From Bacillota bacterium (GTDB lineage: Bacteria > Bacillota > Clostridia > Peptostreptococcales > Thermotaleaceae), in NCBI GenBank assembly GCA_049324315.1, contig JBMOKU010000015.1, positions 11,964 to 35,963 on the forward strand: 24,000 nucleotides of DNA. The letters run 5' to 3'. Position numbers and translations under genes: made by a program. Every line of letters starts with the position of its first letter. Position 1 is the first letter of the stretch. The notes beneath the pieces were generated by a model. That model did no database searches. It was not told the origin of the DNA and saw nothing but the letters and a program-made list of their open reading frames with translations. Of the stretch, positions 1-16,310 are shown piece by piece.

Positions 1-629
1 TTCCAAGTAAAATAGATATTTCACGAACACACTATTTTAGCGATAAGTCACAAGAATTTAGAAAAGCCGTAGACTATATGGGCGATCCCTTAGAATCTGA
101 AAGGATATATATTCATAATGCAGGTTCAGGTCACAAAGGGAAATTCTCATTTTTGACGAATATTGCAGATATGAATACTAGCAAAAAAGAACTTGTTTTT
201 GTAAATAATGACTCTACTAAAACCATTGCCTTGATTGGACCCGATGGTTCCAATAGTGATTTAATAGGGGATTCGGATGTGATTATATATAATCTGGATG
301 ATCTTGATCTTAATACAACCAACGATGAAACCATCAAAGGCATCATCATTACCAAAGGAGATGTTATCCTTAGAGGTAAGCTTAACTATTATGGAACAAT
401 TATAGCAGAGAAAGATATTAACTTTCAGGATAGTAAAACAAAACGTATTGTCCACGATGAGAACTTTATTTACAAGAAGGTATACGACACACAGAACTTA
501 CGCGACCAGTTCGTTAACAACGGCAGTCCCTTTACTTTCTTATACTCCACAGAGGCCAGAGTTGATGACATAGAGTCCTACATCGTCTATGAGGACCTTA
601 TGAAAATACGTTGGGATATCATTCAATAA
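1..629 (+). CDS. 3' portion of a larger ORF truncated by the left window edge; hypothetical protein, probably part of the pilus/pseudopilus cluster
   Basis: The ORF-track start (ATG 78) is probably not the true start. Translating the same frame upstream (codons at 3,6,...,75) gives PSKIDISRTHYFSDKSQEFRKAVDY with no stop, so the frame is open to the window edge. Stop is TAA 627-629. Strand-like repeats are present (GIIITKGDVILRGKLNYYGTIIAEKDINF). No family recognised. Confidence 0.55.
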   Translation, partial: PSKIDISRTHYFSDKSQEFRKAVDYMGDPLESERIYIHNAGSGHKGKFSFLTNIADMNTSKKELVFVNNDSTKTIALIGPDGSNSDLIGDSDVIIYNLDDLDLNTTNDETIKGIIITKGDVILRGKLNYYGTIIAEKDINFQDSKTKRIVHDENFIYKKVYDTQNLRDQFVNNGSPFTFLYSTEARVDDIESYIVYEDLMKIRWDIIQ

Positions 630-704
630 GTTAATCCTATATATTCAATCTTGACAGCTTTGTGAAGGCCGAAAGACAATGGTTAAACAAAGTGAGTGAG
701 CTAT

Positions 705-1169
705 ATGAAAGATCTTTTGAATGAAAATAAGGGATTTACCTTAATTGAGCTTGTGATCGTTATGGCAATAGTAGCGATATTGGCTGTGCTGGTAAAGCCG
801 ACCTTTGGAAAGTCCACATTTGATTTAAAAACACAGTCAATGACGCTTTGCTATGCAATACGAGATGTCCGATTGAGAAATATGACAGAGAGCAATTCAT
901 ATCATATTGTGTTAGAAGAAAATCAATATAGGGTATTAAAAGGTACACAACAAATTCGTAAAACAATTTTGCCCACTGGGTATATACTTGAGGACAATTG
1001 CCCAGATGACGATTCAAGCAGCACGGAAATTCGTTTTAGCAACAACGGAGCGCCAAGTGCATCTGGCACCATCAAGTTTAAAGATATCAATAGAGGCATA
1101 CATATGGAAATAAGAATTGTACCGTCAAGTGGGAGGGTGCTGCTTAGAGATGAGATATTTACGAAGTAA
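705..1169 (+). CDS. Type IV minor pilin / pseudopilin, GspH/FimT(FimU)-like, with prepilin N-terminal cleavage/methylation motif
   Basis: Class III signal MKDLLNENKG|FTLIELVIVMAIVAILAVLV (Gly-1, Phe+1, Glu+5, about 20-aa hydrophobic helix). The C-terminal part follows the GspH/FimT-type pattern (AIRDVRLRN..., EIRFSNNGAPSASGTIKF, MEIRIVPSSGRVLL). Start is ambiguous: ATG 705 (used) or the in-frame GTG 696 from the ORF track. Neither has a strong SD. Confidence 0.85.
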   Translation: MKDLLNENKGFTLIELVIVMAIVAILAVLVKPTFGKSTFDLKTQSMTLCYAIRDVRLRNMTESNSYHIVLEENQYRVLKGTQQIRKTILPTGYILEDNCPDDDSSSTEIRFSNNGAPSASGTIKFKDINRGIHMEIRIVPSSGRVLLRDEIFTK

Positions 1170-1710
1170 TAGAAAAGGCTTTACCCTTGTAGAATTAATC
1201 GTCGTTATAGGAATTATCGGAATCGTTGTCAGTACCATCGGAACATTTTTGGTCTCAAACGTCAAAACCTTTCATTATGCCGATGATCAGATGGAGGTTC
1301 AATACCAAGCTCAGATAGCCATGAACGAATTGGTGGACAGAGTTGTTGAGGCTGAGGGGATTGAGTCAATAGCCTATGTGGGGGCAACTTCAACCATAAA
1401 TGAAATTGTGTTTAGAATTTTTACCAACAAAAAATATATTAAATATGAATATGACCGCAGCAGTACCATAAGAAATCTAAAAAGGGGAGAAGTGGAAGGT
1501 GAAAGTGTACCTCAAATTGCTATTGATAATATTACTACAAACCAATATGCCATGTACGTGGAGAATTGTCAGATAACTTTTTTGCCATCATCAGCTTCTG
1601 GTCCAGCAGACGCGGCAGGCATTCAAATCACTATAACCACCAAAAAAAACAATGTGTCTGTAATGCTGACAAACGAAGTATACTTTCGGAATTGGGAGCC
1701 TTCCCCATAG
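1150..1710 (+). CDS. Type IV minor pilin / pseudopilin (PilW/GspJ-like by pattern) with prepilin N-terminal motif
   Basis: MRYLRSNRKG|FTLVELIVVIGIIGIVVSTIG (Gly-1, Phe+1, Glu+5). The segment after the helix (QMEVQYQAQIAMNELVDRVVEAEG) resembles PilW/GspJ-type minor pilins. ATG 1150 gives a 10-aa basic leader, the same length as the upstream pilin. The ORF-track start 1117 is a TTG that adds 11 atypical residues. GGGAGGG at 1131-1137 lies 12-13 nt upstream, which is long-ish spacing. The gene overlaps the upstream pilin gene by 20 nt. Confidence 0.8.
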   Translation: MRYLRSNRKGFTLVELIVVIGIIGIVVSTIGTFLVSNVKTFHYADDQMEVQYQAQIAMNELVDRVVEAEGIESIAYVGATSTINEIVFRIFTNKKYIKYEYDRSSTIRNLKRGEVEGESVPQIAIDNITTNQYAMYVENCQITFLPSSASGPADAAGIQITITTKKNNVSVMLTNEVYFRNWEPSP

Positions 1711-1796
1711 AACGAGGTGTGCGTCAGCTTTGAAAATAAAAATGTAGGAGAAGCTTTTTTATCTATATTGAGAAGAGTTTAAAAAGGAGGGATAAG

Positions 1797-4700
1797 ATGA
1801 AAAAGGTATTAAGCTGGGTCATGATTTTTATGATGGTAATAGCTGCAGTACCTCATGTTGGCTTTGCTGGTAATGGCAATAATAGTAACAATGCACCGCC
1901 TGAAGAAATTCAAGAATTACACAATATCAAATATACTATCAAAGATTCCAACGGAAATAATATTAATGGCGTAACCGCAAAGTTTTACATTTATAAAGAA
2001 ACAGGTAATGTGGATATTGAATTTGTACTAGAAAATACAACCAGCAGCGATATAAGTGACTGGGTCTTACAGTGTACGTTACCAGGTTTGTATCGGAACG
2101 GTGATGGGAATATACCAATCATTTACAATGGTCATACAGGAAATACTCCTGGTAAAAACGTTGTAGGAGAATACTTGGGCAGCTTTCAATCAACGTTTGA
2201 ACCTAAGAGAAACAAAAATGCCACCCTTTATGCAAAGAATACTTTTACTTTTATTGGTCAGTATAATGGGGAAATGAATCAAACAATTCAATTGGATGAT
2301 GTCATTACCAATGCTGTCCGAAGTGCCAACGCCCAATACAACCTAGGAGATTTCGGAACGATTGAATATCGCGTTAGTGGTAACGCTGTGAATCTACCAT
2401 CGGAGATTATCGGACAAACGCCAAAGGAGATTGTTCTGGTAATTGATACATCTGGAAGTATGGATTGGGATATTAACGGAAATGAAACGTCAAATAATAA
2501 TAATAAAAGAATTACCTATATGAAAACTGCTGCAAAGAACTTTGTTGATCGATTTGAAAATCAAGCAAATGTAAAAATAGGTATTGTGTCCTATGATTAT
2601 GAAGCAACCCTTGAATCAGAGTTGAAATCGACAACATCATATTCTAATTCTTTGAAGTCAACTATAGATAGTTTAAGTGCTAATGGAGGCACAAATACTG
2701 GTGACGGATTAAGAATGGCTTATTGGTTATTAAAGAATTCTCCAAATCTTGATGCACAAAAGTATATTGTGTCATTGACAGATGGTGATCCTACTTTTAG
2801 AACAATTGTAGATAAAAATAATATACTTAATGATTATTATAGCTGGTTTAGATACTACTCAAATTATGATGATTACTGGCCATATACAAGTGAAAATTTT
2901 AAGTCCCACACTTCAAATTCAAGTAGTAATATTTTTATAGCAGGTACTAGTAATCCTATAGATCGGTTAAAAGTGTTTACAAAGAATAATAGAGAAAATG
3001 TATTTCAAAAGGGACATAATCAATGGAATGAAGAAAATGAAAGATGTTTACAGTATGCTGAAGAAATTGGAGAAATGATTAAGGATGAAGGGAATTTTAG
3101 CTCCTATGTCATTGGTTTTTCAAATGGTGTAAGTAGTGATAATCTTCAGAGAATGGGATTGGCCAGTGGTGCCGATGAGATCGCACCGGGAAGAAACTAC
3201 GCCTATGCAAATACGGGTAATGATCTTGGTGCCATTTATGCAGCCTTTGCTGACGAAATAATCAATCAGGTGCCATTGGAAAATGCTCAGTTTAGTGAAC
3301 TATTGCCTGAAGGTATCGATGTCGATACAGCAAATATTCCACAGGGTTTCAGTGCAGTTAAGGAAAACGGAAGATGGCATGTGATCGGTACATGGGACGA
3401 TTTAGTATTAACACGTCAAGATAACGGAACCTATCAAATAGAAGAATCCGTCAAGAGCTTACCGGTGATATTCAACAGAACGGGTGCCTTCAATTTTAGT
3501 AATCAATCGGCCTCTTTGGCATATAATGTAGATGGTTCGAACGATACAAAAACCGTGCTTTTCTCTGAATTAAACATAAATGTTGTGCTTACCGGTTCCT
3601 ATAATATCTTAGAGATAACAGACAGCGGAGAGTCAGATATTGCACCTTTTATCAGCCAAGGAAGTAACATAGAGCTTACTACCCTTAGTATGAAGAAATT
3701 TGTAGCATTAAGAGAAGCACTGGACGGAAAATATGATGTCATCTACATGGGAAGCGGAGAATATGATCCAACTTCTGTAATGGAATTTGACAGGAGCACA
3801 AAGGAAAAAAGGGCAGCCGCACATGCTACAAAAGGTATCATGAATGATATTACCAATCTGAAAGCCGATGAGATTATTCATGACTTCATTAATAAAGGAC
3901 AACCTGTAATTTTACATAATGATATTTTCAATCATAACGATAGCAACTTATATGCTAGGTTTAATCCGTTTAGATCATCTGGTCGTAATAATGTAAGGAT
4001 TGTAACCTCGGCCCAGGAGGCTTTTCCGGCGATAACGTCACTAGCAAGTACGCTCAATAGGCCTGAAATATCATTAACGAATAGTCCAATATCTTATGTA
4101 GAGAATAGCAGTCATGTTTATCATGCAGGTGATACGTTGCAGTATCAATTTACAATAGATAATCAAGAAGTGCTATCAGAAGACTTAACAGCTAATTTGT
4201 ATATTGACAGAAACTTCAACAAAAATTTTGAGTCGGATGAGCTTGTCGCTGCGAATAATGCTTCCAATGGTTCAGTCTCATATACGCTGCCGGGAGGCTA
4301 TTCTACGATTCATTATTGGATGTTAGAGGTCGTCGGCAACAACTCAGGTTTAAAAGATTATAAAACCGGTGTTTATCGTTTTAGAGACATCAAGACAGTC
4401 GTAAAGGTCCTTCAGGTAAGAAATAGTGGTACGAGCTTGAACAATACGAACCAGTTTAATCAAAACTATCTACACACGGATGATTATGATATCCAAATAG
4501 ATGTCGTAAACATGAATGAGTTTAATAAAGTAAATAGCGAATATGGATACAGTGTTTTGAACGGAAAATATGATATGGTTATCTTCGGATTCCAAGATTC
4601 TTACGGGGACGGAGGAATAAGCAATCAAGCCGTGGCTGAAGTTGAGCGATTTATACAGACAGGCCAAAGTACGATGTTAACCCATGACACACTGATAAAT

Positions 4701-6767
4701 ACCAACTCATCACCCAAATTTATAAACTATCTGATGGACGAAGCAGGACAGTTAAACGAACTTCACAATTTAGGCTTCAGTGCACCACAGGTAACGACGG
4801 AAACAGCAAAAGTAAATGAAGGCATTCTTACCCAATATCCTTTCATTCTCGATGATAATATTAGAATTAATCAAACCCATGATCAGTACTATACGCTTAA
4901 TCTAGAAGATGAAGATGTAATCGTATGGTATAATCTAAGAGGCGGAAACAGGGATATTGAAGATAGTTGGTACCACTATTATACCTACTCAAAAGGTAAT
5001 GTTACCTATTCAGGCACTGGACATACAAATACCAATTTCCCCGATGAAGAACAGAAATTGTTTGTCAATACCATGTATAGAGCATTCCTCAGTTCTAATC
5101 ACAACCCGGAGATCAATGTTATAAGTCCTAATGCTGCTACAGATAAGGTAGTCGTTTCCAATAAAACCATACGCGTTGAATATACAGTGGAGGATTATGA
5201 CCCGTTAGACAGTGAAATTGATACGGAAGTTTGGATTGAGGACCAAAAAGTTTATGAGCAAACAGTAGCAAATGGAACCACGATTAATAGATCATTTAAT
5301 GATTACAATATTGAGGGTAATACGGTTGACATCAGGATAATCGCCGTGGATACAAGGGATGCAAGGGCAGTAGAAGAGATCAGTTTACCGATTCATGGAG
5401 ATATCAGTCTAAATGCTGAAAGCAAGCTTGTTAAAAGAGGGGATACCGTTCAATTAACAGCCTCGATTACACCTGAGTTTGCAACGCATCAAGATATTAA
5501 CTGGACAAGCACTAATAATGATATTGTTTCTATTAGCGGAACTGGATCTGTTGTTAATCTACATGCCACAAATGTAGGAATTGTCGATATAACTGCTGCT
5601 ACTGCTGATGACGAGGCGGACTGTAATGTAATCGTTGGTGATGTCACCATACCTGATACAACCATCGAATATGGCAGTACAACCGACATTCTAGCCAGTA
5701 TTGACTTGCCTAATGGTATTAGCTATGATTCGATACAGTGGAGCAGTGACAACACAAGTGTTGTATCGGTAACAGGGAATGGTGAATCAGCTTCATTACA
5801 AGGAATTTCCATTGGCAAAGCAAATGTTACCATCACTGTAACTATAGACGGAGAAACTATTCGTGATCAGGCACTAATCACCGTTGCCGATAGGATAGGA
5901 CCATCGATAACGATTGATACACCGATTATGGGTGACAATATCATCGATAGCAGTGAAAAAAGCAATGTTACCATTAGCGGAACAACCGATGAAGGAGCGA
6001 CTGTTACGGTTGAAATCAGAGACGAAAACGGCAATTCGGTAACATCAGCACAAGTAACAGCTGATGATAGTGGCGATTATGTAGTTACGGGTATCGATAT
6101 CCGTACACTGGAAGACAGCTTACTTACAATTATTGCAACAGCTACAGATGACGCTGGAAATCAGTCTTCATTAGAGAAGGTCGCGAACATCATATCAAGT
6201 ATCAAAATTGTCAGAACCAATGGAGGCAGCTCTGTTTCTGTAGCACCCTTTGCAAACGGTAAGTACGGCGTAATGAATCAAGATGAAGTTATTCAAATTG
6301 TGGATACAGCCGGATCTAATACACAAAAGCTCTATAACGGAAAGGTTCTAGTCAAAATAGAAATTGGGCTGGAGCATGAAGTTGAAAAGCTTACAGTAAA
6401 TCTAACGGATACTTCTACCGATATTGCACCACAATTCACCTATAACTTTGTTGAATTGAAAAAGAAGGGCACCGCTGAAGACACTTACGATAACAGCTTC
6501 AACAGTGATAACACTAAGAGCGTTGCAATAGAAAATGGCAAGGATATCGTATTAAGCTCTACAGCTTCCAGATATCAACCGGGTATCTATTATGTTATCC
6601 TTTCTGTAAATGTAAATAACATTAAAGAGGCTGATATCAGCAATGCAACGTATGATTTGGAAATTGAAGATGTCATAGCTGAAATATCATCCAGTGAAGT
6701 ATATCATCATCCTCAAACGAATAATGCAATTCAAATCCAAATCGTTCAATTACCAAATATACTATAA
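1797..6767 (+). CDS. Giant (1,656 aa) secreted multidomain vWA-domain protein; putative pilus-associated adhesin
   Basis: Strong SD AAAAGGAGGGA (1781-1791) precedes ATG 1797. Sec-type signal peptide MKKVLSWVMIFMMVIAAVPHVGFA|GNG; it is not a prepilin leader. Domain order: unknown N-domain, vWA with MIDAS, two [ThuA-like + Ig-like] modules, two Big_2 domains, another Ig-like domain, and an unknown ~200-aa C-terminus. No LPXTG, C-terminal TM, SLH or wall-binding repeats seen (C-terminus ...IQIVQLPNIL). Confidence 0.9.
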   Translation: MKKVLSWVMIFMMVIAAVPHVGFAGNGNNSNNAPPEEIQELHNIKYTIKDSNGNNINGVTAKFYIYKETGNVDIEFVLENTTSSDISDWVLQCTLPGLYRNGDGNIPIIYNGHTGNTPGKNVVGEYLGSFQSTFEPKRNKNATLYAKNTFTFIGQYNGEMNQTIQLDDVITNAVRSANAQYNLGDFGTIEYRVSGNAVNLPSEIIGQTPKEIVLVIDTSGSMDWDINGNETSNNNNKRITYMKTAAKNFVDRFENQANVKIGIVSYDYEATLESELKSTTSYSNSLKSTIDSLSANGGTNTGDGLRMAYWLLKNSPNLDAQKYIVSLTDGDPTFRTIVDKNNILNDYYSWFRYYSNYDDYWPYTSENFKSHTSNSSSNIFIAGTSNPIDRLKVFTKNNRENVFQKGHNQWNEENERCLQYAEEIGEMIKDEGNFSSYVIGFSNGVSSDNLQRMGLASGADEIAPGRNYAYANTGNDLGAIYAAFADEIINQVPLENAQFSELLPEGIDVDTANIPQGFSAVKENGRWHVIGTWDDLVLTRQDNGTYQIEESVKSLPVIFNRTGAFNFSNQSASLAYNVDGSNDTKTVLFSELNINVVLTGSYNILEITDSGESDIAPFISQGSNIELTTLSMKKFVALREALDGKYDVIYMGSGEYDPTSVMEFDRSTKEKRAAAHATKGIMNDITNLKADEIIHDFINKGQPVILHNDIFNHNDSNLYARFNPFRSSGRNNVRIVTSAQEAFPAITSLASTLNRPEISLTNSPISYVENSSHVYHAGDTLQYQFTIDNQEVLSEDLTANLYIDRNFNKNFESDELVAANNASNGSVSYTLPGGYSTIHYWMLEVVGNNSGLKDYKTGVYRFRDIKTVVKVLQVRNSGTSLNNTNQFNQNYLHTDDYDIQIDVVNMNEFNKVNSEYGYSVLNGKYDMVIFGFQDSYGDGGISNQAVAEVERFIQTGQSTMLTHDTLINTNSSPKFINYLMDEAGQLNELHNLGFSAPQVTTETAKVNEGILTQYPFILDDNIRINQTHDQYYTLNLEDEDVIVWYNLRGGNRDIEDSWYHYYTYSKGNVTYSGTGHTNTNFPDEEQKLFVNTMYRAFLSSNHNPEINVISPNAATDKVVVSNKTIRVEYTVEDYDPLDSEIDTEVWIEDQKVYEQTVANGTTINRSFNDYNIEGNTVDIRIIAVDTRDARAVEEISLPIHGDISLNAESKLVKRGDTVQLTASITPEFATHQDINWTSTNNDIVSISGTGSVVNLHATNVGIVDITAATADDEADCNVIVGDVTIPDTTIEYGSTTDILASIDLPNGISYDSIQWSSDNTSVVSVTGNGESASLQGISIGKANVTITVTIDGETIRDQALITVADRIGPSITIDTPIMGDNIIDSSEKSNVTISGTTDEGATVTVEIRDENGNSVTSAQVTADDSGDYVVTGIDIRTLEDSLLTIIATATDDAGNQSSLEKVANIISSIKIVRTNGGSSVSVAPFANGKYGVMNQDEVIQIVDTAGSNTQKLYNGKVLVKIEIGLEHEVEKLTVNLTDTSTDIAPQFTYNFVELKKKGTAEDTYDNSFNSDNTKSVAIENGKDIVLSSTASRYQPGIYYVILSVNVNNIKEADISNATYDLEIEDVIAEISSSEVYHHPQTNNAIQIQIVQLPNIL
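2424..3266 (+). other. von Willebrand factor A (vWA) domain with complete MIDAS, inside the giant CDS (aa ~210-490)
   Basis: IVLVIDTSGSMD contains DxSxS at nt 2445-2459. ANGGTNTGDGL supplies the MIDAS Thr (nt 2685-2708). YIVSLTDGDPT supplies the MIDAS Asp (nt 2778-2792). Later beta-strand SSYVIGFSNG and closing helix DLGAIYAAFADEII. An ~80-aa aromatic-rich insertion lies between the TDGDP strand and the following helix. Confidence 0.85.
3582..5396 (+). repeat. Internal protein-level tandem duplication: two [ThuA/GATase1-like + Ig-like beta-sandwich] supermodules (aa ~596-865 and ~867-1200)
   Basis: Paired motifs appear in the same order in both copies: ILEITDSG / VLQVRNSG; LDGKYDVIYMGSGEY / LNGKYDMVIFGFQDSY; FINKGQPVILHNDIF / FIQTGQSTMLTHDTL; NRPEISLTNSP / NHNPEINVISPN. 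Only the second copy carries the full C-terminal half (TQYPFILDD..INQTHDQYYTL, VIVWYNL, YTYSKGNVTYSGTGHT, EEQKLFVNTMYRAF). That motif order mirrors ThuA-like domains. The fold assignment is inference. Confidence 0.55.
5403..5885 (+). other. Two tandem bacterial Ig-like group 2 (Big_2) domains inside the giant CDS
   Basis: First: LVKRGDTVQLTASITPEFATHQDINWTSTNNDIVSISGTGSVVNLHATNVGIVDITAAT. Second: IEYGSTTDILASIDLPNGISYDSIQWSSDNTSVVSVTGNGESASLQGISIGKANVTITVT. Both show the classic Big_2 signature (G.t.qL.a...P......v.W.SSn..vatV...G.vta...G.a.Ita). A further Ig-like domain follows at ~5895-6176 (GPSITIDTP...VTISGTTDEGATVTVEI...ATATDDAGN). Confidence 0.8.
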
Positions 6768-6772
6768 ATGTA

Positions 6773-6812
6773 AGACAAAGAAATGGAAAAATCCATTTCT
6801 TTGTCTCTTTTG
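6773..6812 (+). terminator. Rho-independent terminator after the giant adhesin gene
   Basis: Perfect 15-bp stem AGACAAAGAAATGGA (6773-6787) / TCCATTTCTTTGTCT (6792-6806). Loop is AAAA. Tail is CTTTTG. Confidence 0.8.
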
Positions 6813-6838
6813 AAGGATTTTTTAACTATTTGTATAAT
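6810..6838 (+). promoter_or_regulatory. Candidate sigma-A type promoter for the ComFB-family gene
   Basis: -35 TTGAAG (6810-6815), 17-nt spacer, consensus -10 TATAAT (6833-6838). It lies directly after the terminator and ~25 nt upstream of the comFB SD. Confidence 0.4.
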
Positions 6839-6872
6839 ATTTCTATTATTAAGTTTAGAACGGAGGTTGTAT

Positions 6873-7151
6873 ATGTTAAAAAATTATATGGAAGACGTGG
6901 TGGATCACATTCTACCATCTATGCTAAAAGCCTTTAATAACATCTGTAAATGTGAGAAATGCATCAATGATATTAAAGCTATTACTTTAAACCATTTAAA
7001 GCCTCATTATGTGGTTACGGAAAAGGGTGAGATATACACCAGAATCAATGAGATGTATATACAGTTTGAAACAGATGTGATGAAGGCTATTATTGATGCC
7101 ATCGCCATTGTTTCGAAATATCCAAGACATGAATTAGAAAAGAGTAAATGA
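6873..7151 (+). CDS. comFB: ComFB-family protein (late competence development protein ComFB fold), 92 aa
   Basis: MLKNYMEDVVDHILPSMLKAFNNICKCEKCINDIKAITLNHLKPHYVVTEKGEIYTRINEM...AIAIVSKYPRH matches the ComFB family pattern as I recall it (CxCxxC, DIkA.aLN.L.P.YvvtekGe.y, IVSk.PRH). ATG 6873 is preceded by GGAGG (6862-6866). The ORF-track start 6783 lies inside the terminator hairpin and is rejected. Confidence 0.8.
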   Translation: MLKNYMEDVVDHILPSMLKAFNNICKCEKCINDIKAITLNHLKPHYVVTEKGEIYTRINEMYIQFETDVMKAIIDAIAIVSKYPRHELEKSK

Positions 7152-7301: not shown

Positions 7302-8363
7302 ATGCTGCAAAGAGTTGAAAATCTGAGAAACAGGATGAAAGAGAAGGATTTAGACGCTGTTTTGATCTATAAACCTGAGAATCGCAGGTATATCAGCGGA
7401 TTTACCGGCAGCTCCGGTTATGCACTGATTACCAGAGAGAAGGCATACTTTATTACAGATTTTCGCTATATTGAACAGTCTTCTAATCAATGTCAAGGGT
7501 ACGAAATTGTACAGCATGACAACAGTAAGACCGTTATCTCTATCTTACATAATTTAAAATTAAGGAATCTTGGCTTTGAAGAAGATTTTGTCACCTATGG
7601 TCAATACTTAGAGATGAAGGAAAAGCTTGAAGCAACTGAATTAATTCCCCTTAAAGGCTTGTTCAATACGCTAAGGATCAAAAAATATGATCAGGAAATT
7701 CAGTATATACAGAAAGCTGCTCAAATAGCAGATGAAGCATTTACATATATATGTGACTTTATTAAACCTGGGGTAAAGGAAATTGATGTAGCTTTAGAAT
7801 TGGAAATGTTCATGAAAAAGAAAGGTGCATCAGGCATTTCCTTCGAAAGTATCGTTGCATCAGGCGTTCGATCATCACTTCCCCACGGTGTGGCATCAGA
7901 CAAAATCATTGAAGACGGTGATTTTGTAACATTGGATTTTGGCTGTATATACAACGGCTACTGCTCAGATATGACAAGAACAGTGGTTGTAGGAAGCGCG
8001 TCAGATAAGCAGAAAGAGATTTACCGGATCGTTCTGGAAGCACAAGAGGCTGCACTGACTGCCATAAAACCCGGCGTTTCTGGATTTGATGTGGATAAAA
8101 TCGCGAGAGATATTATTGCAAAGAATGGTTATGGAGATTATTTTGGACACAGTCTAGGCCATGGTGTAGGCTTGGAGATTCATGAATCACCAAGGTTATC
8201 ACCTGCCAGCACAGACCAACTGGAAGCAGGCATGATTGTAACGGATGAACCTGGTATATACTTACCGGATTTTGGTGGTGTACGGATTGAGGATCTTATC
8301 TTAGTAACAGAAGATGGCTGCAAGATATTGTCCAAGTCACCTAAAGAATTAATTGAACTTTAG
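7302..8363 (+). CDS. pepP: M24B family Xaa-Pro aminopeptidase/dipeptidase (B. subtilis YqhT/PapA-like)
   Basis: Creatinase-like N-domain followed by a pita-bread fold with the metal ligand motifs DFGCIYNGYCSDMTRT, HSLGHGVGLEIHE and DEPGIY...GGVRIEDLI. SD GGGGGGA (7289-7295). The position immediately upstream of efp matches the yqhT-efp arrangement in Bacillus. Confidence 0.9.
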   Translation: MLQRVENLRNRMKEKDLDAVLIYKPENRRYISGFTGSSGYALITREKAYFITDFRYIEQSSNQCQGYEIVQHDNSKTVISILHNLKLRNLGFEEDFVTYGQYLEMKEKLEATELIPLKGLFNTLRIKKYDQEIQYIQKAAQIADEAFTYICDFIKPGVKEIDVALELEMFMKKKGASGISFESIVASGVRSSLPHGVASDKIIEDGDFVTLDFGCIYNGYCSDMTRTVVVGSASDKQKEIYRIVLEAQEAALTAIKPGVSGFDVDKIARDIIAKNGYGDYFGHSLGHGVGLEIHESPRLSPASTDQLEAGMIVTDEPGIYLPDFGGVRIEDLILVTEDGCKILSKSPKELIEL

Positions 8364-8446
8364 ATGTGACATAGGGACAGTTCCATCGTCTTCCCTACGG
8401 GCCTTCGCTGCGTTACGGTGACGCTCGAACCGTCCCCAAGTCACAT
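8364..8446. repeat. 83-nt GC-rich imperfect palindrome / structured intergenic element (REP- or MITE-like, or a small structured RNA)
   Basis: Outer stem ATGTGAC (8364-8370) pairs with GTCACAT (8440-8446). Second stem GGGACAGTTC (8374-8383) pairs with GAACCGTCCC (8427-8436) with one A.C mismatch. Inner pairs are CGTC (8387-8390)/GACG (8420-8423) and CCC-TAC-GGG (8393-8401). My hand count over 8374-8436 gives about 63% G+C, in a visibly AT-rich window. No U-tract on either strand. Confidence 0.5.
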
Positions 8447-8526
8447 TACAAAGTCCATTGCTGCTGGATTTATTGTTACCAGTAGATGAATATACACATT
8501 ATACAAATGCTAATGGAGGGATATGA

Positions 8527-9084
8527 ATGATTTCAGCTTCAGATTTTAGAAAAGGTGTTACATTTGAGATAAATGGAGAACCTTTTGTCGTTGTTGATTT
8601 TCAACACGTAAAGCCTGGTAAAGGCGCAGCTTTTGTAAGAACTAAGTACAAAAGTGTTACTACTGGTTCTATCCGTGAGGAAGCGTTTAGCCCAAATGAC
8701 AAATTTCCAAAGGCTCATATAGAGACAAAGCAAATGCAATATCTCTATGCAGATGGAGATCTATACTATTTCATGGATAATGAATCCTATGAACAGATTC
8801 CTTTAACACTAGAGCAAGTAGAAGACGCAATCAAATATATCAGGGAAAATGATAGTGCTACTGTGAAGTTCTTCAAAGGAAAAGCGTTCCAAGTTGACCC
8901 ACCAAACTTTGTCGAATTGGTTGTTACTTATACAGAGCCTGGTGTAAAAGGCGATACGGCAACAAATGTTACAAAGCCTGCAACAGTGGAAACAGGTGCA
9001 GTAATTCATGTGCCAATTTTCATTAATGAGGGTGACAAAATTAAGATTGATACAAGAACAGGCGAGTATTTATCAAGAGCATAG
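8527..9084 (+). CDS. efp: Translation elongation factor P
   Basis: [48 protein letters not shown] is the canonical EF-P N-terminus. The Lys-type modification loop KPGKG is present. SD GGAGG (8515-8519) lies 7 nt before the ATG. Length 185 aa. Confidence 0.97.
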
Positions 9085-9183
9085 GGAATAATATAAAAAG
9101 CCTTCTGTTAAGGCATCCTAAATCTAAGGTTTTAATTTCCTATTGGTTTTAAAAAAATAGATGAACAAAAGGAGGGTTTCACC

Positions 9184-9654
9184 ATGAATTATCTTTATGA
9201 GAGAGTTTCCTACTTAAGAGGTTTGGCAGAAGGAATGGAAATTAGTGACAAATCAAAGGAAGGAAAGCTGCTTTTAAACATTATTGATGTACTAGAAGAT
9301 TTTGCAGACTCCTTGGACGAATTAAATGGTCAAGTTGCTGAAATCGATGAATATGTGGAAGCTGTTGATGAGGATCTGGCAGATCTGGAAGACGAAATTT
9401 ACGGAGAACTGGATGAAGAAGATGACGAGGACTTCGAAGATGATGAAGATATTGATTTCGTTGAGGTCGATTGTCCAAATTGTGGTGAGACCATTTATCT
9501 TGATGAAGATTTAATTTATGATGAAGACGAAGCAGAAGTAATCTGCCCAAGCTGTCATGAAAAACTACATCTAGAAGAAGGCTGCTGTGATTGTGGCTGC
9601 GAAGAATGTGATGATGAAGAAGATGAGCATCATGAAGGCGGCTGCTGCCATTAA
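9184..9654 (+). CDS. Highly acidic zinc-ribbon protein with Cys/His-rich C-terminal tail (uncharacterised family)
   Basis: SD AAAGGAGGG before ATG 9184. Helical N-domain MNYLYERVSYLRGLAEGMEI... An almost pure D/E stretch spans aa ~55-95. Zinc ribbon CPNCG-x20-CPSCH covers nt ~9472-9555. The tail EEGCCDCGCEECDDEEDEHHEGGCCH has 7 Cys and 3 His in 26 aa. A strong terminator follows. From memory it resembles proteins labelled 'CD1247 N-terminal domain-containing'; this is unverified. Confidence 0.8.
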   Translation: MNYLYERVSYLRGLAEGMEISDKSKEGKLLLNIIDVLEDFADSLDELNGQVAEIDEYVEAVDEDLADLEDEIYGELDEEDDEDFEDDEDIDFVEVDCPNCGETIYLDEDLIYDEDEAEVICPSCHEKLHLEEGCCDCGCEECDDEEDEHHEGGCCH

Positions 9655-9675
9655 TTGAATCTATCAAACAAAAAA

Positions 9676-9713
9676 CTGATATGAACGGTAAATCCGTTTA
9701 TATCAGTTTTTTT
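9676..9713 (+). terminator. Rho-independent terminator after the acidic zinc-ribbon gene
   Basis: 13-bp stem CTGATATGAACGG (9676-9688) / CCGTTTATATCAG (9694-9706) with one G.U pair. Loop is TAAAT. A T7 run follows at 9707-9713. Confidence 0.85.
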
Positions 9714-9802
9714 ATGTTGTTTTTCATTCGCTTATTTGTAAAAGAAAATAAGCATATTATCTATTCAACGTAAATATTATTAATAGAAAGGAGGGACAGG
9801 TT

Positions 9803-10852
9803 ATGAATGATTCAAAAGATAAAAACTTTGTAAGTAAAAATACGCCTATGCATTATATGAAAAATGAAATATTGGAAGCATTACCTTTAAAAATCAGAGA
9901 ATTATTACGGTATGTGACAGACAGTCGCATGAAAGATATTGAAGAAATCAGATTTCGTATTCTCAAACCACTGCTTCTTAGCTTAGGTAAAAGAGAGTAC
10001 TTTTTAAATGTAGACGGTGGACTTGATCGTTGTATTGAAAAAGCTTATATCGTGACAAAGGATGATATCGAAAATGCTTTTCAGTTCATAACAGATTATT
10101 CTGTATATACGCTGGAAGAAGATATCCGTAATGGCTTTGTCACCATGAAAGGTGGTCATCGCGTAGGCATATGCGGCCGCGTCATAAGAAATGGTCCTTA
10201 TATAAGAACAATAAAGGATATATCAGGACTAAATATCCGAATTTCTAAGGAAAAAATAGGGGTATCTGATCACATTATGAAAAACCTCATAGGACCTTCA
10301 CATTTTTGTCATAACACTTTGATTATTTCGCCCCCACAATGTGGTAAAACCACGCTGCTCAGGGATATTGTCAGAAACCTAAGCAATGGTATTCCACAAT
10401 TGAAAGTTAAGGGACTAAAAGTGGGTGTTGTCGATGAACGTTCGGAAATTTGCGGCTGTTACCAAGGAGTACCACAGAATGACGTAGGTATGCGAACAGA
10501 TATTTTAGATGCATGTCCGAAGGCAGAAGGTATGATGATGCTAATTCGCTCTATGTCGCCAGAAGTTATTGTGACGGATGAAATAGGGAAGAAAGAGGAT
10601 GTGTCAGCCATTGAAGAAGCGCTGCATGCAGGTGTAAAGGTAATCACGACAGTCCATGGAAGCAGCTTTCACGAGCTGTTGGATCGGCCCCATGTCAGTC
10701 GTTTGTTAGAAAGCAGTGTCTTCGAAAAGTACATTATTTTGTCTAATCAGCCGAAAGTAGGAACGATAAAGGAAATCATCGATCATAAGAAAATAATGCA
10801 GTCTACGTCAAATGGCAGGGGGTGGATCCATGATGATCAAGTTTCTGGTTAG
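9803..10852 (+). CDS. spoIIIAA: Stage III sporulation protein AA (secretion-type AAA+ ATPase of the SpoIIIA-SpoIIQ channel)
   Basis: Walker A SPPQCGKTT and Walker B VIVTDEIG. Motifs EEIRFRILKPLLL and HRVGICG are typical of SpoIIIAA. SD AAAGGAGGGA (9788-9797). It is the first of eight co-linear spoIIIA genes. Confidence 0.9.
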   Translation: MNDSKDKNFVSKNTPMHYMKNEILEALPLKIRELLRYVTDSRMKDIEEIRFRILKPLLLSLGKREYFLNVDGGLDRCIEKAYIVTKDDIENAFQFITDYSVYTLEEDIRNGFVTMKGGHRVGICGRVIRNGPYIRTIKDISGLNIRISKEKIGVSDHIMKNLIGPSHFCHNTLIISPPQCGKTTLLRDIVRNLSNGIPQLKVKGLKVGVVDERSEICGCYQGVPQNDVGMRTDILDACPKAEGMMMLIRSMSPEVIVTDEIGKKEDVSAIEEALHAGVKVITTVHGSSFHELLDRPHVSRLLESSVFEKYIILSNQPKVGTIKEIIDHKKIMQSTSNGRGWIHDDQVSG

Positions 10853-11351
10853 TTTGGTCATTATATTGTCTTCCACCGCCATAGGCATGCTGCTTTCCCA
10901 TAGATATACACTTAGGGTTAAATGCTTGAAATCCTTGCATCATGCCATGCAAATGCTGGAGGTAGAAACACTATACGCTTCAAAACCACTGCCTGTAGCG
11001 ATGAAAACCATAGCAGAACGCTCGTATCCGTCTATTTCAGTTATATTTCATAAGATGCACACATTATTACTTGGAAGGATGGGTATCACGGTTTCAGAGG
11101 CATGGTACCAATCAGTAGATCAGTATGCAGTTGATCTTCCATTAAACAAGGAAGATATTGACGTGCTAAAAGAGTTTGGAAAAATGCTTGGCACAACAGA
11201 TAGAGAATACCAAGAGAAAAATTTTCATCATCTCTATTTCTTGTTAAAAAAGCAAGAAGAAGATGCAGTTTCTCAAAAATGTAAAAATGAAAAATTGTAC
11301 AAAAGTCTAGGTATCTTGACTGGTATAGGAATCGTTATTGTTTTGATTTAA
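10830..11351 (+). CDS. spoIIIAB: Stage III sporulation protein AB
   Basis: MMIKFLVSLVIILSSTAIGMLLS starts with an N-terminal TM segment and the protein ends in a C-terminal TM segment. Length 173 aa fits SpoIIIAB. ATG 10830 is preceded by AGGGGGTGGA (10817-10826). The ORF-track start 10812 lies upstream of that SD. The gene overlaps spoIIIAA by 23 nt. Confidence 0.85.
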   Translation: MMIKFLVSLVIILSSTAIGMLLSHRYTLRVKCLKSLHHAMQMLEVETLYASKPLPVAMKTIAERSYPSISVIFHKMHTLLLGRMGITVSEAWYQSVDQYAVDLPLNKEDIDVLKEFGKMLGTTDREYQEKNFHHLYFLLKKQEEDAVSQKCKNEKLYKSLGILTGIGIVIVLI

Positions 11352-11380
11352 AAGATATTTACCTAAGGGGGAAATTGGAC

Positions 11381-11578
11381 ATGAACATCGATTTGATTTT
11401 TAAGATTGCTGCGATTGGTATCTTAGTCACTGTATTAAATCAAGTACTTGTACACTCGGGCAGAGAAGAACAGGCTACCATGACCACCATCGCGGGCATT
11501 GTCATTGTGCTGCTGATGGTGATTCAACTAATTAACAATTTATTTACCACCGTAAAGACAATGTTTCAGCTTTACTAA
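11381..11578 (+). CDS. spoIIIAC: Stage III sporulation protein AC (small two-TM protein)
   Basis: MNIDLIFKIAAIGILVTVLNQVLVHSGREEQA... aligns with the SpoIIIAC pattern (IFqIagvGI...L...gk.e.a). ATG 11381 lies 8 nt after AAGGGGGA (11365-11372). The ORF-track TTG 11375 is too close to the SD. Confidence 0.85.
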   Translation: MNIDLIFKIAAIGILVTVLNQVLVHSGREEQATMTTIAGIVIVLLMVIQLINNLFTTVKTMFQLY

Positions 11579-11600
11579 AACATAATAAGGTGAGGTTACC

Positions 11601-11987: not shown

Positions 11988-11990
11988 GAT

Positions 11991-13826: not shown

Positions 13827-13843
13827 AGCGAGGGGGAAAATCT

Positions 13844-14446: not shown

Positions 14447-14464
14447 ATCTTGGGGGGAAGCTGT

Positions 14465-15196: not shown

Positions 15197-15202
15197 TTTG
15201 GT

Positions 15203-15231
15203 TTGTAAATAAAAACTTAATTTGGTATAAT
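15203..15231 (+). promoter_or_regulatory. Candidate sigma-A promoter with extended -10, upstream of asp23
   Basis: -35 TTGTAA (15203-15208), 17-nt spacer, TGg-TATAAT (TG at 15223-15224, -10 at 15226-15231). Confidence 0.45.
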
Positions 15232-15275
15232 ATTCATTGAAGATTTTATTCCTAATATTGGGGGGTGTAGGAATC

Positions 15276-15674: not shown

Positions 15675-15687
15675 ATGATAATATTGA

Positions 15688-16295: not shown

Positions 16296-16310
16296 TAAAG
16301 GAGTAATACA

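What the first reader, a model, noticed from the sequence alone, without database searches (positions are those of the whole stretch)
1..7151. Minor-pilin pair + giant secreted vWA protein + orphan ComFB: candidate PilY1-like tip-adhesin module of a Gram-positive type IV pilus/pseudopilus
Seen in sequence: two consecutive, overlapping genes encode proteins with textbook prepilin class III leaders (KG|FTLIELV and KG|FTLVELI, both with Glu+5). One has a GspH/FimT-like body and the other a PilW/GspJ-like body. After a further 86 nt comes a 1,656-aa protein with an ordinary Sec signal, a vWA domain with all MIDAS residues, multiple Ig-like domains, and no recognisable anchoring device (no LPXTG, SLH, wall-binding repeats or C-terminal TM). 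A strong terminator closes the unit, and a ComFB-family gene follows. Established knowledge: in Gram-negative T4aP, the non-pilin vWA protein PilY1 is held at the pilus tip by a minor-pilin complex (FimU/PilVWX, GspH-K-like). In Streptococcus sanguinis a vWA module is instead fused to a pilin (PilB). Inference: this locus looks like a Firmicutes counterpart of the PilY1 arrangement, with an anchorless giant adhesin displayed by a minor-pilin tip complex. As far as I know this is not a characterised system in Clostridia. The truncated upstream ORF suggests the cluster continues to the left.
Basis: partly seen in the sequence, partly recalled or inferred. Interest (0 to 1): 0.8.

Follow-up and report, generated by a model that had tools for sequence, protein, structure and literature searches.

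The report
Giant adhesin tied to type-IV pili
A 1,656-residue secreted protein with an adhesion (vWA) domain closes a type IV pilus gene cluster. Its conserved core (DUF5057) sits inside pilus gene clusters in many Gram-positive genera, so it is a strong candidate for the non-pilin pilus-tip protein these bacteria are currently said to lack.

Summary
The window holds two overlapping prepilin genes, a 1,656-aa Sec-exported protein (vWA with full MIDAS, DUF5057, Ig-like domains), a strong terminator and a ComFB gene. The truncated upstream ORF is the C-terminus of a large PilX/GspK-like minor pilin.

The decisive test passed. Of 80 species-level DUF5057 loci, 76 carry Glu5 pilins, 73 carry the PilX/K-like gene and 75 carry pilB/T/C/M/D/O within 10 kb. 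In Clostridia the order is pilB-pilC-pilA-pilMNO-minor pilins-DUF5057. In Bacilli the gene lies next to the minor-pilin and pilus-machinery operons.

- DUF5057, not vWA, is the conserved core. A syntenic relative lacks the vWA.
- An anchoring candidate exists: lineage-specific extreme C-terminal tails (…LPxLx-COOH; …[DNE][KR]Y-COOH). They recall the PilC/PilY1 C-terminal plug.
- ComFB is not orphan. It belongs to a c-di-NMP receptor family already reported inside clostridial T4P operons.

The protein is not a PilY1 homologue: there is no beta-propeller. Tip display is inferred, not shown. No paper in the library mentions DUF5057, and a 2026 preprint states that monoderm T4aP lack PilC/PilY1.

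The parts
3..629 (+). 3' end (last 208 codons) of a large PilX/GspK-like minor pilin gene. The 5' part lies beyond the left edge of the window.
   Evidence: A profile built from nine clostridial 760-950-aa proteins encoded just upstream of DUF5057 genes hits it with E=2.5e-18 at profile positions 547-738 of 753. Family members carry a class III-like leader without Glu5. PilX_N matches 6 of 10 and DUF2572 matches 8 of 10 members. The full-length orthologue in L081 is 747 aa.
651..680 (+). Promoter-like site (TTGACA-18-GACAAT) in the gap before pilin 1. A possible internal promoter.
   Evidence: Consensus scan only. The number of sites in the region is not above shuffled expectation.
705..1169 (+). 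Minor pilin 1 with leader MKDLLNENKG|FTLIELV (Glu5). Its body is weakly GspH/FimU/ComGD-like.
   Evidence: N_methyl E=2.4e-8. TIGR02532 E=1.8e-8, ComGD E=2.8e-8 over 129 of 139 positions and GspH E=4.4e-8, the last two below their cut-offs. The orthologue in L081 is 37% identical.
1150..1710 (+). Minor pilin 2 with leader MRYLRSNRKG|FTLVELI (Glu5). Its body is unclassified. It overlaps pilin 1 by 20 nt.
   Evidence: N_methyl E=3.3e-8. Homologues sit immediately upstream of DUF5057 genes in L078 (E=5e-26) and L073 (E=4e-13) and in L081. PDB and HMM matches cover only the N-terminal helix.
1797..6767 (+). Giant non-pilin protein of 1,656 aa. Domain order: Sec signal, low-confidence N-terminal region, vWA, beta-sandwich, DUF5057 core, Ig-like stalk, C-terminal region, conserved tail.
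   Evidence: Public name: 'MAG: DUF5057 domain-containing protein [Bacillota bacterium]'.
1797..1868 (+). Sec (type I) signal peptide MKKVLSWVMIFMMVIAAVPHVGFA|G. It is not a prepilin leader.
   Evidence: Read from the sequence. It is the only hydrophobic segment in the protein. 225 of 234 family proteins have an N-terminal hydrophobic, signal-like segment, and none of the 279 proteins held has a prepilin leader.
2424..3266 (+). vWA domain with a complete MIDAS (D217, S219, S221, T299, D329) and a Tyr/Trp-rich inserted loop. It is an accessory adhesion module.
   Evidence: VWA_2 E=4.9e-15. The best PDB sequence hit is S. sanguinis T4P pilin PilB, 7b7p, E=5e-11 / 3e-12. Most of the top Foldseek matches are pilus tip adhesins: Mfa5, PitA, PilB, GBS104 and RrgA.
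3552..5150 (+). DUF5057 core (residues 586-1118), the conserved signature module of the family. By my reading of the secondary-structure order it is two alpha/beta lobes with an inserted beta-sandwich.
   Evidence: PF16480 E=5.1e-21 and a weak ThuA match. 40-56% identity to relatives in Bacilli. AF2 model pLDDT 89.8, pTM 0.88. No convincing solved structural or sequence relative.
5155..6191 (+). Ig-like stalk made of Big_2 x2 plus a Big_6 / Ca-stabilised adhesin repeat.
   Evidence: Big_2 E=9e-13 and Big_6 E=3.3e-5. Ca_tandemer E=3.6e-10. PDB matches to a surface protein and the LapA-type adhesin.
6729..6764 (+). Extreme C-terminal tail IQIQIVQLPNIL-COOH. It has an alternating hydrophobic, strand-like pattern and ends in the conserved P-x-[LIVM]-x. 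It is the candidate docking ('plug'-like) element.
   Evidence: Among 11 clostridial-type proteins, Pro at -4 occurs in 10 and Leu at -2 in 9. 41 of 143 diverse family representatives end P.[LIVM].$ and 65 of 143 end [DNEGST][KRL][YWF]$. The same motifs occur in 0.4-0.5% of 1,189 neighbouring ORFs. The L081 orthologue ends VIQVVQLPQIL.
6773..6806 (+). Intrinsic terminator closing the pilus-adhesin unit.
   Evidence: Perfect 15-bp stem with a 4-nt loop, followed by CUUUUG...UUUUUU. -20.7 kcal/mol, z=-5.2, 0 of 200 shuffles fold as well. An equivalent hairpin follows the L081 gene.
6873..7151 (+). ComFB-family protein (92 aa) with its own ribosome-binding site (GGAGG) and a promoter-like site at 6810-6838. 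It is a probable c-di-NMP receptor.
   Evidence: PF10719 E=2.3e-25. It aligns end to end with B. subtilis ComFB 4WAI (E=1e-7), with Cys25/27/30, D33 and N40 conserved. It is 79% identical and in the same position in L081. Family function is taken from PMC12448109.

Best explanation
Window 1-6806 is the distal end of a type IVa pilus operon of a spore-forming Bacillota (Clostridia-like) organism. It encodes the minor-pilin priming/tip set: a large PilX/GspK-like pilin, a GspH/ComGD-like pilin and a second small pilin. These are followed by a Sec-exported, non-pilin accessory protein of the DUF5057 family.

Shown here:
- DUF5057 proteins are a large family, about 1,100 clusters at 50% identity.
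- Their genes are embedded in T4aP loci, next to the PilX/K-like minor-pilin gene, across Bacilli and Clostridia.

Inferred:
- The protein is carried by the minor-pilin complex at the pilus tip, as PilC/PilY1 is in diderms.
- The conserved DUF5057 core acts as the pilus-proximal module.
- Variable ligand-binding modules provide adhesion. Here that is a MIDAS-containing vWA domain closest to that of the S. sanguinis pilin PilB. Relatives carry lectin, PA14 or cadherin-like modules.
- The Ig-like repeats act as a stalk.
- The lineage-specific extreme C-terminal tail (here IQIQIVQLPNIL-COOH) is the docking element. It probably works by strand addition to, or C-terminal peptide recognition by, the PilX/K-like pilin.

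The downstream ComFB gene is a separately transcribed, probable c-di-GMP/c-di-AMP receptor that may regulate pilus functions.
For: Synteny:
- Of 80 species-level DUF5057 loci, 76 have Glu5 pilins, 73 have the PilX/K-like gene (within 2 genes in 68) and 75 have PilB/T, C, M, D or O within +-10 kb. Two of the four loci with neither pilins nor machinery are cut by contig ends.
- The most frequently co-occurring gene families in these loci are all T4P components.
- Three more loci sampled from an independent protein library are also T4P-linked.
- The clostridial order is pilB-pilC-pilA-pilM-pilN-pilO-pilin-PilX/K-like-(pilin)-DUF5057.
- The window ORF 3..629 belongs to the PilX/K-like family (E=2.5e-18). 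That family shows PilX_N in 6 of 10 members and leaders without Glu5.

Adhesin character:
- vWA with a full MIDAS.
- Best PDB sequence hit is the T4P pilin PilB.
- Most of the top structural matches are pilus tip adhesins.
- Ig-like and Ca-tandemer repeats.
- Accessory lectin/adhesin domains in relatives.

Tail:
- Terminal motifs occur in 65 of 79 locus-encoded DUF5057 proteins against about 1% of 1,189 neighbouring ORFs.
- They persist across 143 diverse representatives, although the preceding domains vary.

Fast evolution:
- Against syntenic L081, the pilus and adhesin genes are 29-46% identical while the neighbouring housekeeping genes are 60-94% identical.
Against: - There is no experimental or structural evidence of an interface.
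- The PilY1 beta-propeller is absent, so homology cannot support the analogy.
- A protein of about 180 kDa would have to pass thick peptidoglycan together with the pilus tip.
- In Bacilli the gene is convergent with the minor-pilin operon, not co-transcribed with it.
- The tail in Bacilli is only 3-4 conserved residues after a flexible linker, unlike a 12-residue strand.
- None of the 279 proteins retrieved in the family searches has a prepilin-type leader, so no pilin-DUF5057 fusion was seen.
- The DUF5057 core carries invariant His/Asp/Glu/Thr residues that could mean an enzymatic role.
- Two loci (L023, L074) lack nearby pilus genes.
Confidence: 0.55

Rival explanations
1. The giant protein is a cargo rather than a stable tip component. 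It would be Sec-exported, then pushed through or released beyond the peptidoglycan by a T2SS-like action of the pilus. It would end up as a free or matrix-bound adhesin. This resembles TcpF/CofJ in type IVb pili, or the vWA protein BsaC of C. perfringens, whose secretion needs PilA3 and the T4P machinery.
For: The same synteny evidence applies. Precedent exists for T4P-dependent secretion of a vWA protein in a Clostridium (PMC11580942). T4bP cargoes are encoded in the pilus operon and bind the tip minor pilin through a terminal peptide (discussion in 10.64898/2026.09.18.752573). The protein has a Sec signal and no wall anchor.
Against: BsaC is encoded far from the pilus locus, and its secretion did not depend on cpe2277, cpe2279 or cpe2280. 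The tight pairing with the PilX/K-like pilin and the conserved tail fit a lasting interaction at least as well. Ig-like stalks are typical of cell- or filament-attached adhesins.
Confidence: 0.2
2. DUF5057 is an envelope-level accessory of the monoderm pilus machine rather than an adhesin. For example, it could be an enzyme or scaffold that opens or lines the path of the pilus through peptidoglycan and secondary wall polymers. The vWA and Ig-like parts would then be add-ons.
For: The conserved part of the family is the DUF5057 core, not the adhesion modules. The core has nearly invariant polar residues (THD, TH.Q, E, D, T.SG.G) that suggest a catalytic or metal site. There is a weak ThuA (glutamine-amidotransferase-like) similarity. 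How T4P cross the Gram-positive wall is an acknowledged open question (PMC6916266).
Against: There is no match to any known wall hydrolase, and no solved relative at all. All members are very large proteins with long Ig-like arrays and lectin/adhesin modules, which is unusual for a machine component. No membrane anchor is present.
Confidence: 0.12
3. It is an ordinary secreted surface adhesin whose position next to pilus genes is coincidental or reflects only co-regulation.
For: The gene is transcribed from the opposite strand in Bacilli. Two loci have no pilus genes nearby. Public annotation is simply 'surface protein containing Ig-like domains'.
Against: Adjacency is conserved across more than 12 genera of two classes, in different gene orders and orientations. 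T4P loci occupy well under 1% of a genome, so chance adjacency in 75 of 80 species is not credible (inference). No other anchoring device is present.
Confidence: 0.03

Closest known systems
PilC/PilY1 of diderm type IVa pili (Neisseria PilC1/2, P. aeruginosa and M. xanthus PilY1)
   Same: Both are very large non-pilin proteins with a Sec type I signal. Both are encoded with the minor-pilin set that includes a PilX/PilK (GspK-like) pilin. Both combine a variable ligand-binding region (a vWA domain in P. aeruginosa PilY1, from my own knowledge) with a conserved module. PilC/PilY1 is anchored by a short extreme C-terminal element, and a conserved C-terminal tail exists here too.
   Different: There is no IPR008707/PilY1 beta-propeller. 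The conserved module here is the alpha/beta DUF5057 core, which lies in the middle or at the N-terminus rather than at the C-terminus. The host is monoderm and has no outer membrane. Tip location, a role in biogenesis and tail docking are all untested.
Modular minor pilin PilB of Streptococcus sanguinis (PDB 7b7p)
   Same: It is a monoderm T4aP adhesin. Its vWA module is the closest solved sequence relative of the window's vWA, sharing DTSGSMDWD, TNxGDGLR and KYIVxLTDG.
   Different: PilB is itself a pilin, with a class III leader and an N-terminal helix fused to the vWA. The window protein has a Sec signal and no pilin module, and none of the 279 family proteins does.
C. perfringens main T4P locus, gene CPE2277
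   Same: The position is the same...pilM-pilN-pilO-CPE2280-CPE2279-pilA3-CPE2277 followed by a terminator (PMC6958937). CPE2277 is described as a 'protein of unknown function' (PMC11580942).
   Different: Homology of CPE2277 to DUF5057 could not be tested here. No C. perfringens protein appeared among the best profile hits.
Type IVb pilus cargo proteins (TcpF, CofJ) and C. perfringens BsaC
   Same: They are non-pilin secreted proteins that depend on a type IV pilus and on tip minor pilins. BsaC is a vWA protein.
   Different: T4bP cargoes use an N-terminal peptide and a homotrimeric minor pilin, and they are released. BsaC is encoded elsewhere. None of them contains DUF5057.
Tapirins of Caldicellulosiruptor
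   Same: They are non-pilin substrate-binding proteins encoded next to the T4P locus of a clostridial thermophile (bioRxiv 10.1101/359786).
   Different: They are cellulose-binding proteins described in that abstract as structurally unique. No sequence comparison was made here.
Sortase-pilus and type V pilus tip adhesins (RrgA, GBS104, PitA, Mfa5)
   Same: They are the best structural matches of the vWA region. They share the same adhesive logic of a vWA domain on a stalk at a pilus tip.
   Different: Those are covalently polymerised by sortases, or assembled by strand exchange in type V pili. There is no LPXTG motif here.

Membership tests
DUF5057 (Pfam PF16480) | Match to the family profile above the curated cut-off | tested here: met
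   E=5.1e-21, 76 bits against a cut-off of 27.9. 40-56% identity of the core to named DUF5057 proteins.
vWA domain (PF13519/PF00092) with MIDAS | DxSxS...T...D metal-ion-dependent adhesion site within a vWA fold | tested here: met
   VWA_2 E=4.9e-15. D217, S219, S221, T299 and D329 are invariant and align to PilB. The vWA region of the AF2 model matches solved vWA-domain adhesins in the fold search.
PilC/PilY1 | C-terminal PilY1/PilC beta-propeller domain (IPR008707) | tested here: not met
   No such Pfam hit at E<=0.1. The conserved module is predicted to be alpha/beta.
PilC/PilY1 | Large non-pilin protein with a Sec type I signal, encoded with the PilX/K-containing minor-pilin set | tested here: met
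PilC/PilY1 | Extreme C-terminal plug that docks on PilK by beta-strand augmentation | tested here: inconclusive
   Conserved lineage-specific tails exist.
PilC/PilY1 | Located at the pilus tip and required for piliation | not testable with these tools
   Needs genetics, labelling and proteomics.
Type IV pilins (class III signal; PF07963/TIGR02532) | G|FTLxE leader with Glu5 followed by a hydrophobic helix | tested here: met
   Both pilin genes qualify: E=2.4e-8 and 3.3e-8, and TIGR02532.
GspH/FimU/ComGD minor pilins (pilin 1) | Profile match of the globular body above the cut-off | tested here: inconclusive
   Pfam GspH E=0.017 (16 bits, cut-off 21). ComGD 34 bits (cut-off 70). GspH 33 bits (cut-off 80).
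PilW/GspJ minor pilins (pilin 2) | Profile or structure match of the body | tested here: not met
   Only the N-terminal helix matches anything.
PilX/PilK/GspK-type large minor pilin (upstream ORF) | Class III-like leader lacking Glu5, a PilX_N region and a large body | tested here: inconclusive
   The window holds only the C-terminal 208 aa. Its family (E=2.5e-18) shows leaders without Glu5 and PilX_N in 6 of 10 members. The L081 orthologue starts ...NNRG|STLVLVLV. There is no PDB match to GspK.
Modular pilins (S. sanguinis PilB/PilC type) | Adhesive module fused to a pilin N-terminus | tested here: not met
   Sec signal, no prepilin motif.
Sortase-anchored surface proteins | C-terminal LPXTG, hydrophobic segment and charged tail | tested here: not met
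   No LPXTG-like motif and no C-terminal hydrophobic segment.
ComFB / CdgR c-di-NMP receptors (PF10719) | Profile match, with conserved Zn-Cys and nucleotide-binding residues | tested here: met
   E=2.3e-25. Aligns to 4WAI with Cys25/27/30, D33 and N40 conserved and K41 replaced by H. Nucleotide binding itself is not testable here.

The most novel reading that the evidence does not exclude
DUF5057 proteins are the functional counterpart in monoderm type IVa pili of PilC/PilY1. They would be a non-homologous family of about 1,100 clusters of tip-located proteins in Bacilli and Clostridia. They would dock through a short lineage-specific C-terminal tail onto the PilX/K-like minor pilin and be needed for pilus biogenesis and/or adhesion. 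If so, the current statement that monoderm T4aP lack a PilC/PilY1-type component would hold only for streptococci.
Probability: 0.3. Interest if true: 0.85.

Novelty: new variant of a known kind. Interest (0 to 1): 0.72.

Why it matters
Current reviews and a September 2026 preprint state that Gram-positive (monoderm) type IVa pili lack PilC/PilY1, and that their tips are functionalised only by modular pilins. That view rests mainly on Streptococcus sanguinis.

The comparative data here show that many Bacilli and Clostridia keep a giant non-pilin protein family inside their pilus loci. It lies next to a PilX/K-like minor pilin and carries a conserved C-terminal tail. The genera include Paenibacillus, Cohnella, Brevibacillus, Anoxybacillus, Exiguobacterium, Peribacillus and Clostridium.

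If the family is tip-displayed, four things follow:
- A domain of unknown function gets a role.
- Non-pilin tip presentation is extended to monoderms through a non-homologous module.
- The question of how large proteins cross the Gram-positive wall with a pilus becomes directly testable.
- A handle (the tail) becomes available for displaying proteins on Gram-positive pili.

Some hosts are tractable or relevant. T4P are a virulence factor in Paenibacillus thiaminolyticus.

Tried and rejected
1. Extending the contig leftward failed. Exact-product look-ups for the window's own proteins returned nothing. A metagenome scan with the upstream ORF found no relative. The source genome is not among the GTDB species representatives scanned. 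Related loci were used instead.
4. I looked for a 'Rosetta stone' pilin-DUF5057 fusion and found none in 279 proteins.
5. Sortase, SLH or transmembrane anchoring is rejected. There is no such motif or domain.
6. A PilW/GspJ identity for pilin 2 has no support.
7. PDB relatives of the PilX/K-like family: none found.
8. A riboswitch or other Rfam RNA in the window: none found.
9. ComFB is not a conserved neighbour across the 80 loci. It appears only in the window and in its close relative L081.
10. The homology of C. perfringens CPE2277 to DUF5057 could not be settled.
11. The consensus terminator scan missed the real terminator, because its T-run is interrupted. Folding confirmed it.

Full report
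**1. Observation**

- ORF 705..1169 (or GTG 696) encodes a prepilin with leader NENKG|FTLIELV.
- ORF 1150..1710 (or TTG 1117) encodes one with leader SNRKG|FTLVELI.
- Both match the N-terminal methylation motif (E=2.4e-8 and 3.3e-8; TIGR02532). They overlap by 20 nt.
- After 86 nt, ORF 1797..6767 encodes 1,656 aa. It starts with a Sec-type signal (MKKVLSWVMIFMMVIAAVPHVGFA|G).
- Its domain matches are VWA_2 (E=4.9e-15), DUF5057 (E=5.1e-21, above the curated cut-off), two Big_2 and Big_6, plus a Ca-stabilised adhesin repeat.
- The MIDAS residues D217, S219, S221, T299 and D329 are invariant among homologues.
- There is no LPXTG-like motif. No hydrophobic segment exists other than the signal peptide.
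- A perfect 15-bp hairpin at 6773-6806, followed by a U-rich tract, folds at -20.7 kcal/mol (z=-5.2).
- A ComFB gene follows (PF10719, E=2.3e-25).

Three corrections apply.

- The ComFB ORF as listed (6783) begins inside the terminator. The real start is ATG 6873, which has a GGAGG ribosome-binding site. This is confirmed by the orthologue in L081, which starts MLKNYME.
- The GspH-like body of pilin 1 has only sub-threshold support.
- The PilW/GspJ-like body of pilin 2 has no support.

**2. The upstream fragment**

ORF 3..629 is the C-terminal quarter of a large minor pilin.

- A profile of nine 760-950-aa clostridial proteins, each encoded just before a DUF5057 gene, hits it at E=2.5e-18 over profile positions 547-738 of 753.
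- These proteins, and their 520-690-aa counterparts in Bacilli (reciprocally homologous), start with a class III-like leader that lacks Glu5, for example KKG|SSLITVV and ERG|SALLLVV. From my own knowledge, lack of Glu5 is the hallmark of GspK/PilX/PilK-type pilins.
- PilX_N matches 6 of 10 members and DUF2572 matches 8 of 10.

**3. What the giant protein belongs to**

A scan of one genome per species found 183 relatives, and 80 loci were kept. I called ORFs in all loci, clustered them by BLAST and mapped the gene order.

- In Clostridia the order is pilB-pilC-pilA(1-3 copies)-pilM-pilN-pilO-pilin(260-340 aa)-PilX/K-like-(small pilin)-DUF5057-(pilD). Pfam confirmed this for L075.
- In Paenibacillus and Cohnella the DUF5057 gene lies between the pilB-pilT-pilC-pilA-pilD-pilMN operon and a pilin-pilin-PilX/K-like operon. 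It is convergent with the latter.
- In Anoxybacillus, Exiguobacterium and Brevibacillus the order is valS-folC-DUF5057, then the convergent minor-pilin operon, then pilB-pilT-pilC.

Counts:

| Feature within +-10 kb of DUF5057 | Loci (of 80) |
|---|---|
| At least one Glu5 pilin | 76 |
| PilX/K-like gene | 73 (within two genes in 68) |
| T4P machinery genes | 75 |

Of the four loci with neither pilins nor machinery, two are cut by contig ends. Only L023 and L074 are genuine exceptions. The most frequently co-occurring families are all T4P components.

Three further loci were reached through an independent protein library, and all are T4P-linked.

- L081 is syntenic with the window.
- L082 has the full clostridial order, with an MshEN-bearing PilB.
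- L083 has DUF5057 directly upstream of pilB-pilT-pilC.

The expected leftward continuation is seen in relatives.

**4. Family anatomy**

- The DUF5057 core (residues 586-1118) finds 1,104 clusters at 50% identity with E<=1e-10. Nearly all of the listed best matches are proteins of 1,000-2,500 aa.
- In most of them the core is near the N-terminus. The vWA region of the window protein is therefore an accessory module.
- L081 makes this concrete. Its neighbours are close to the window's: EF-P 93.5%, ComFB 79%, PepP 69% and SpoIIIAA 60% identical. Its DUF5057 protein, however, is 1,246 aa and has no vWA.
- The pilus genes of L081 are only 29-46% identical to the window's. That is the pattern of a fast-evolving surface module.
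- Relatives carry other adhesin or lectin modules. Precomputed Pfam accessions include PA14, GLEYA, ricin-type lectin and cadherin-like domains. The family names are from my memory of those accessions.
- All public names are non-functional: 'DUF5057 domain-containing protein', 'surface protein containing Ig-like domains' or YjdB.
- No paper in the searchable library mentions DUF5057.

**5. A candidate anchoring device**

The extreme C-termini are conserved in lineage-specific forms, although the preceding Ig-like arrays vary.

- Clostridial-type proteins end in a strand-like alternating hydrophobic stretch plus P-x-[LIVM]-x-COOH. Pro at -4 occurs in 10 of 11 and Leu at -2 in 9 of 11. The window protein ends IQIQIVQLPNIL and L081 ends VIQVVQLPQIL.
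- Bacilli end in [DNE]-[KR]-Y-COOH after a flexible linker. The terminal residue is Tyr in 61 of 65.
- Proteins from Brevibacillus and Aneurinibacillus loci end ...AKxxL[KQRN].
- Among 143 diverse representatives, 65 have the Bacilli-type ending and 41 the clostridial-type ending.
- Among 1,189 other ORFs in the same loci, the two motifs occur 6 and 5 times.

This matters because of recent work on PilC/PilY1. Its last 12 residues are necessary and sufficient for tip localisation. They dock on PilK by beta-strand augmentation, and plug sequences differ between systems (bioRxiv 10.64898/2026.09.18.752573; PMC13533445). That the tails found here play the same role is my inference.

**6. Structure**

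- An AF2 model of residues 26-1130 (pLDDT 75.8) has a confident vWA fold.
- Most of its best PDB matches are pilus tip adhesins: Mfa5, PitA, S. sanguinis PilB, GBS104 and RrgA.
- By sequence, the closest solved protein is the T4P modular pilin PilB (7b7p, E=5e-11). It shares DTSGSMDWD, TNxGDGLR and KYIVxLTDG with the window protein.
- A separate model of the DUF5057 core is confident (pLDDT 89.8, pTM 0.88). By my reading of its secondary-structure order it has two alpha/beta lobes with an inserted beta-sandwich.
- The core has no convincing solved relative by fold (best query-normalised TM 0.23) or by profile. Only a weak ThuA similarity was seen.
- It carries nearly invariant His, Asp, Glu and Thr residues. 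Their role is unexplained.

**7. How it most likely works**

Shown:
- The window carries the distal part of a T4aP locus.
- DUF5057 proteins are Sec-exported non-pilins.
- They are genomically locked to the PilX/K-containing minor-pilin set in two classes of Bacillota.

Inferred:
- The minor pilins form the priming/tip complex. This follows established knowledge for GspH-K and FimU-PilVWX systems.
- The giant protein rides on that complex, with the C-terminal tail as the docking element.
- The DUF5057 core is the conserved pilus-proximal module.
- The Ig-like repeats form a stalk.
- The MIDAS vWA is the ligand-binding head.

I put this at 0.55. The rivals are:

| Rival | Basis | Confidence |
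|---|---|---|
| Pilus-dependent cargo or matrix protein | cf. BsaC, TcpF | 0.2 |
| Envelope-level accessory or enzyme that helps the pilus cross the wall | Conserved polar site | 0.12 |
| Coincidental neighbour | | 0.03 |

Points against tip display:
- The protein is about 180 kDa and would have to pass the peptidoglycan mesh.
- The gene is convergent with the minor-pilin operon in Bacilli.
- The tail in Bacilli is very short.
- No pilin fusion exists in the family.
- There is no interface evidence of any kind.

**8. ComFB**

- The gene is separately transcribed. It lies after the terminator and has its own promoter-like site (6810-6838) and ribosome-binding site.
- ComFB proteins are c-di-GMP/c-di-AMP receptors. 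comFB has already been noted inside T4P operons of Thermoanaerobacterales (PMC12448109).
- The window protein aligns with B. subtilis ComFB. The zinc cysteines and D33/N40 are conserved.
- It keeps its position in L081 but is absent from the other 80 loci.
- It is therefore a plausible local regulator, not an orphan competence gene and not a core part of the module.

**9. Comparison with the known, and novelty**

- The protein works like PilC/PilY1 in outline but fails the defining membership feature, the beta-propeller. It is an analogue, not a homologue.
- It is not a modular pilin, although it shares PilB's vWA.
- The position-equivalent gene of C. perfringens, CPE2277, is listed as 'unknown function'.
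- Reviews and the 2026 preprint say monoderm T4aP lack PilC/PilY1.
- I found no publication linking DUF5057 to pili.
- I therefore rate it a new variant of a known kind: non-pilin pilus-associated adhesins. The evidence is solid for the association and only circumstantial for the mechanism.

**10. Rest of the window**

Positions 7302-24000 hold housekeeping genes: pepP, efp, a CD1247-N-domain protein, spoIIIAA-AH, asp23-like, nusB, xseA/B, ispA, dxs and tlyA-like. No Rfam RNA was found.

Noticed in passing
window 1-6767 compared with L081 1-7675: Against the syntenic relative L081, the housekeeping neighbours are 60-94% identical but the pilus and adhesin genes are only 29-46% identical. The whole N-terminal 586 aa, including the vWA, is present in the window protein and absent from the L081 orthologue. 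This indicates modular gain or loss and fast evolution of the surface module.
   Followed up: partly
L082 1-299; L083 13450-15138: The PilB ATPases of related loci carry an MshEN domain. By my knowledge this is a c-di-GMP-binding module. Together with the ComFB gene, it points to cyclic-dinucleotide control of these pili.
   Followed up: no
window 651-680: A promoter-like site (TTGACA-18-GACAAT) lies in the 75-nt gap between the PilX/K-like gene and pilin 1. It may be an internal promoter for the pilin-pilin-DUF5057 sub-operon. It is a consensus match only.
   Followed up: no
window 4845-5120 (giant protein residues ~683-1104): The DUF5057 core has nearly invariant polar residues across 56 divergent members: NDxT, D934, T962-H963-D964, T1027-H1028-x-Q1030, E1037, D1056, TxSGxG and N1101. 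They look like a metal, ligand or catalytic site. No solved relative exists to interpret them.
   Followed up: partly
window 2811-3020 (giant protein residues ~339-408): A low-confidence loop rich in Tyr and Trp is inserted in the vWA domain (model residues 314-383, pLDDT < 50). Other clostridial homologues carry a Cys/His-rich insertion in the vWA region (seen in the consensus of alignment A1).
   Followed up: no
window 9184-9654: A small protein with a CD1247 N-terminal domain (E=1.5e-26) and a CxxC zinc-binding-like C-terminus lies between efp and spoIIIAA. It is conserved in the same place in L081 (58% identity). Its function is unknown.
   Followed up: no
L073 4188-7892 and the next gene; L074; L083 10001-13381: Three variant arrangements were seen. 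L073 has two giant genes in tandem (1,234 aa, then a 1,942-aa DUF5057 protein). L074 (Tepidibacter) has a DUF5057 gene among chemoreceptor genes with no pilus genes within 10 kb, yet it keeps the ...VPILE tail. L083 has DUF5057 as the gene directly upstream of pilB-pilT-pilC.
   Followed up: partly
L075 14687-16423; L074 flanks: Methyl-accepting chemotaxis protein genes lie next to DUF5057 genes in some clostridial loci.
   Followed up: no
window 6783-6872: The mechanical ORF for ComFB is 30 codons too long at its 5' end. These codons overlap the terminator hairpin of the upstream gene. An automated annotation could easily make the same error.
   Followed up: yes
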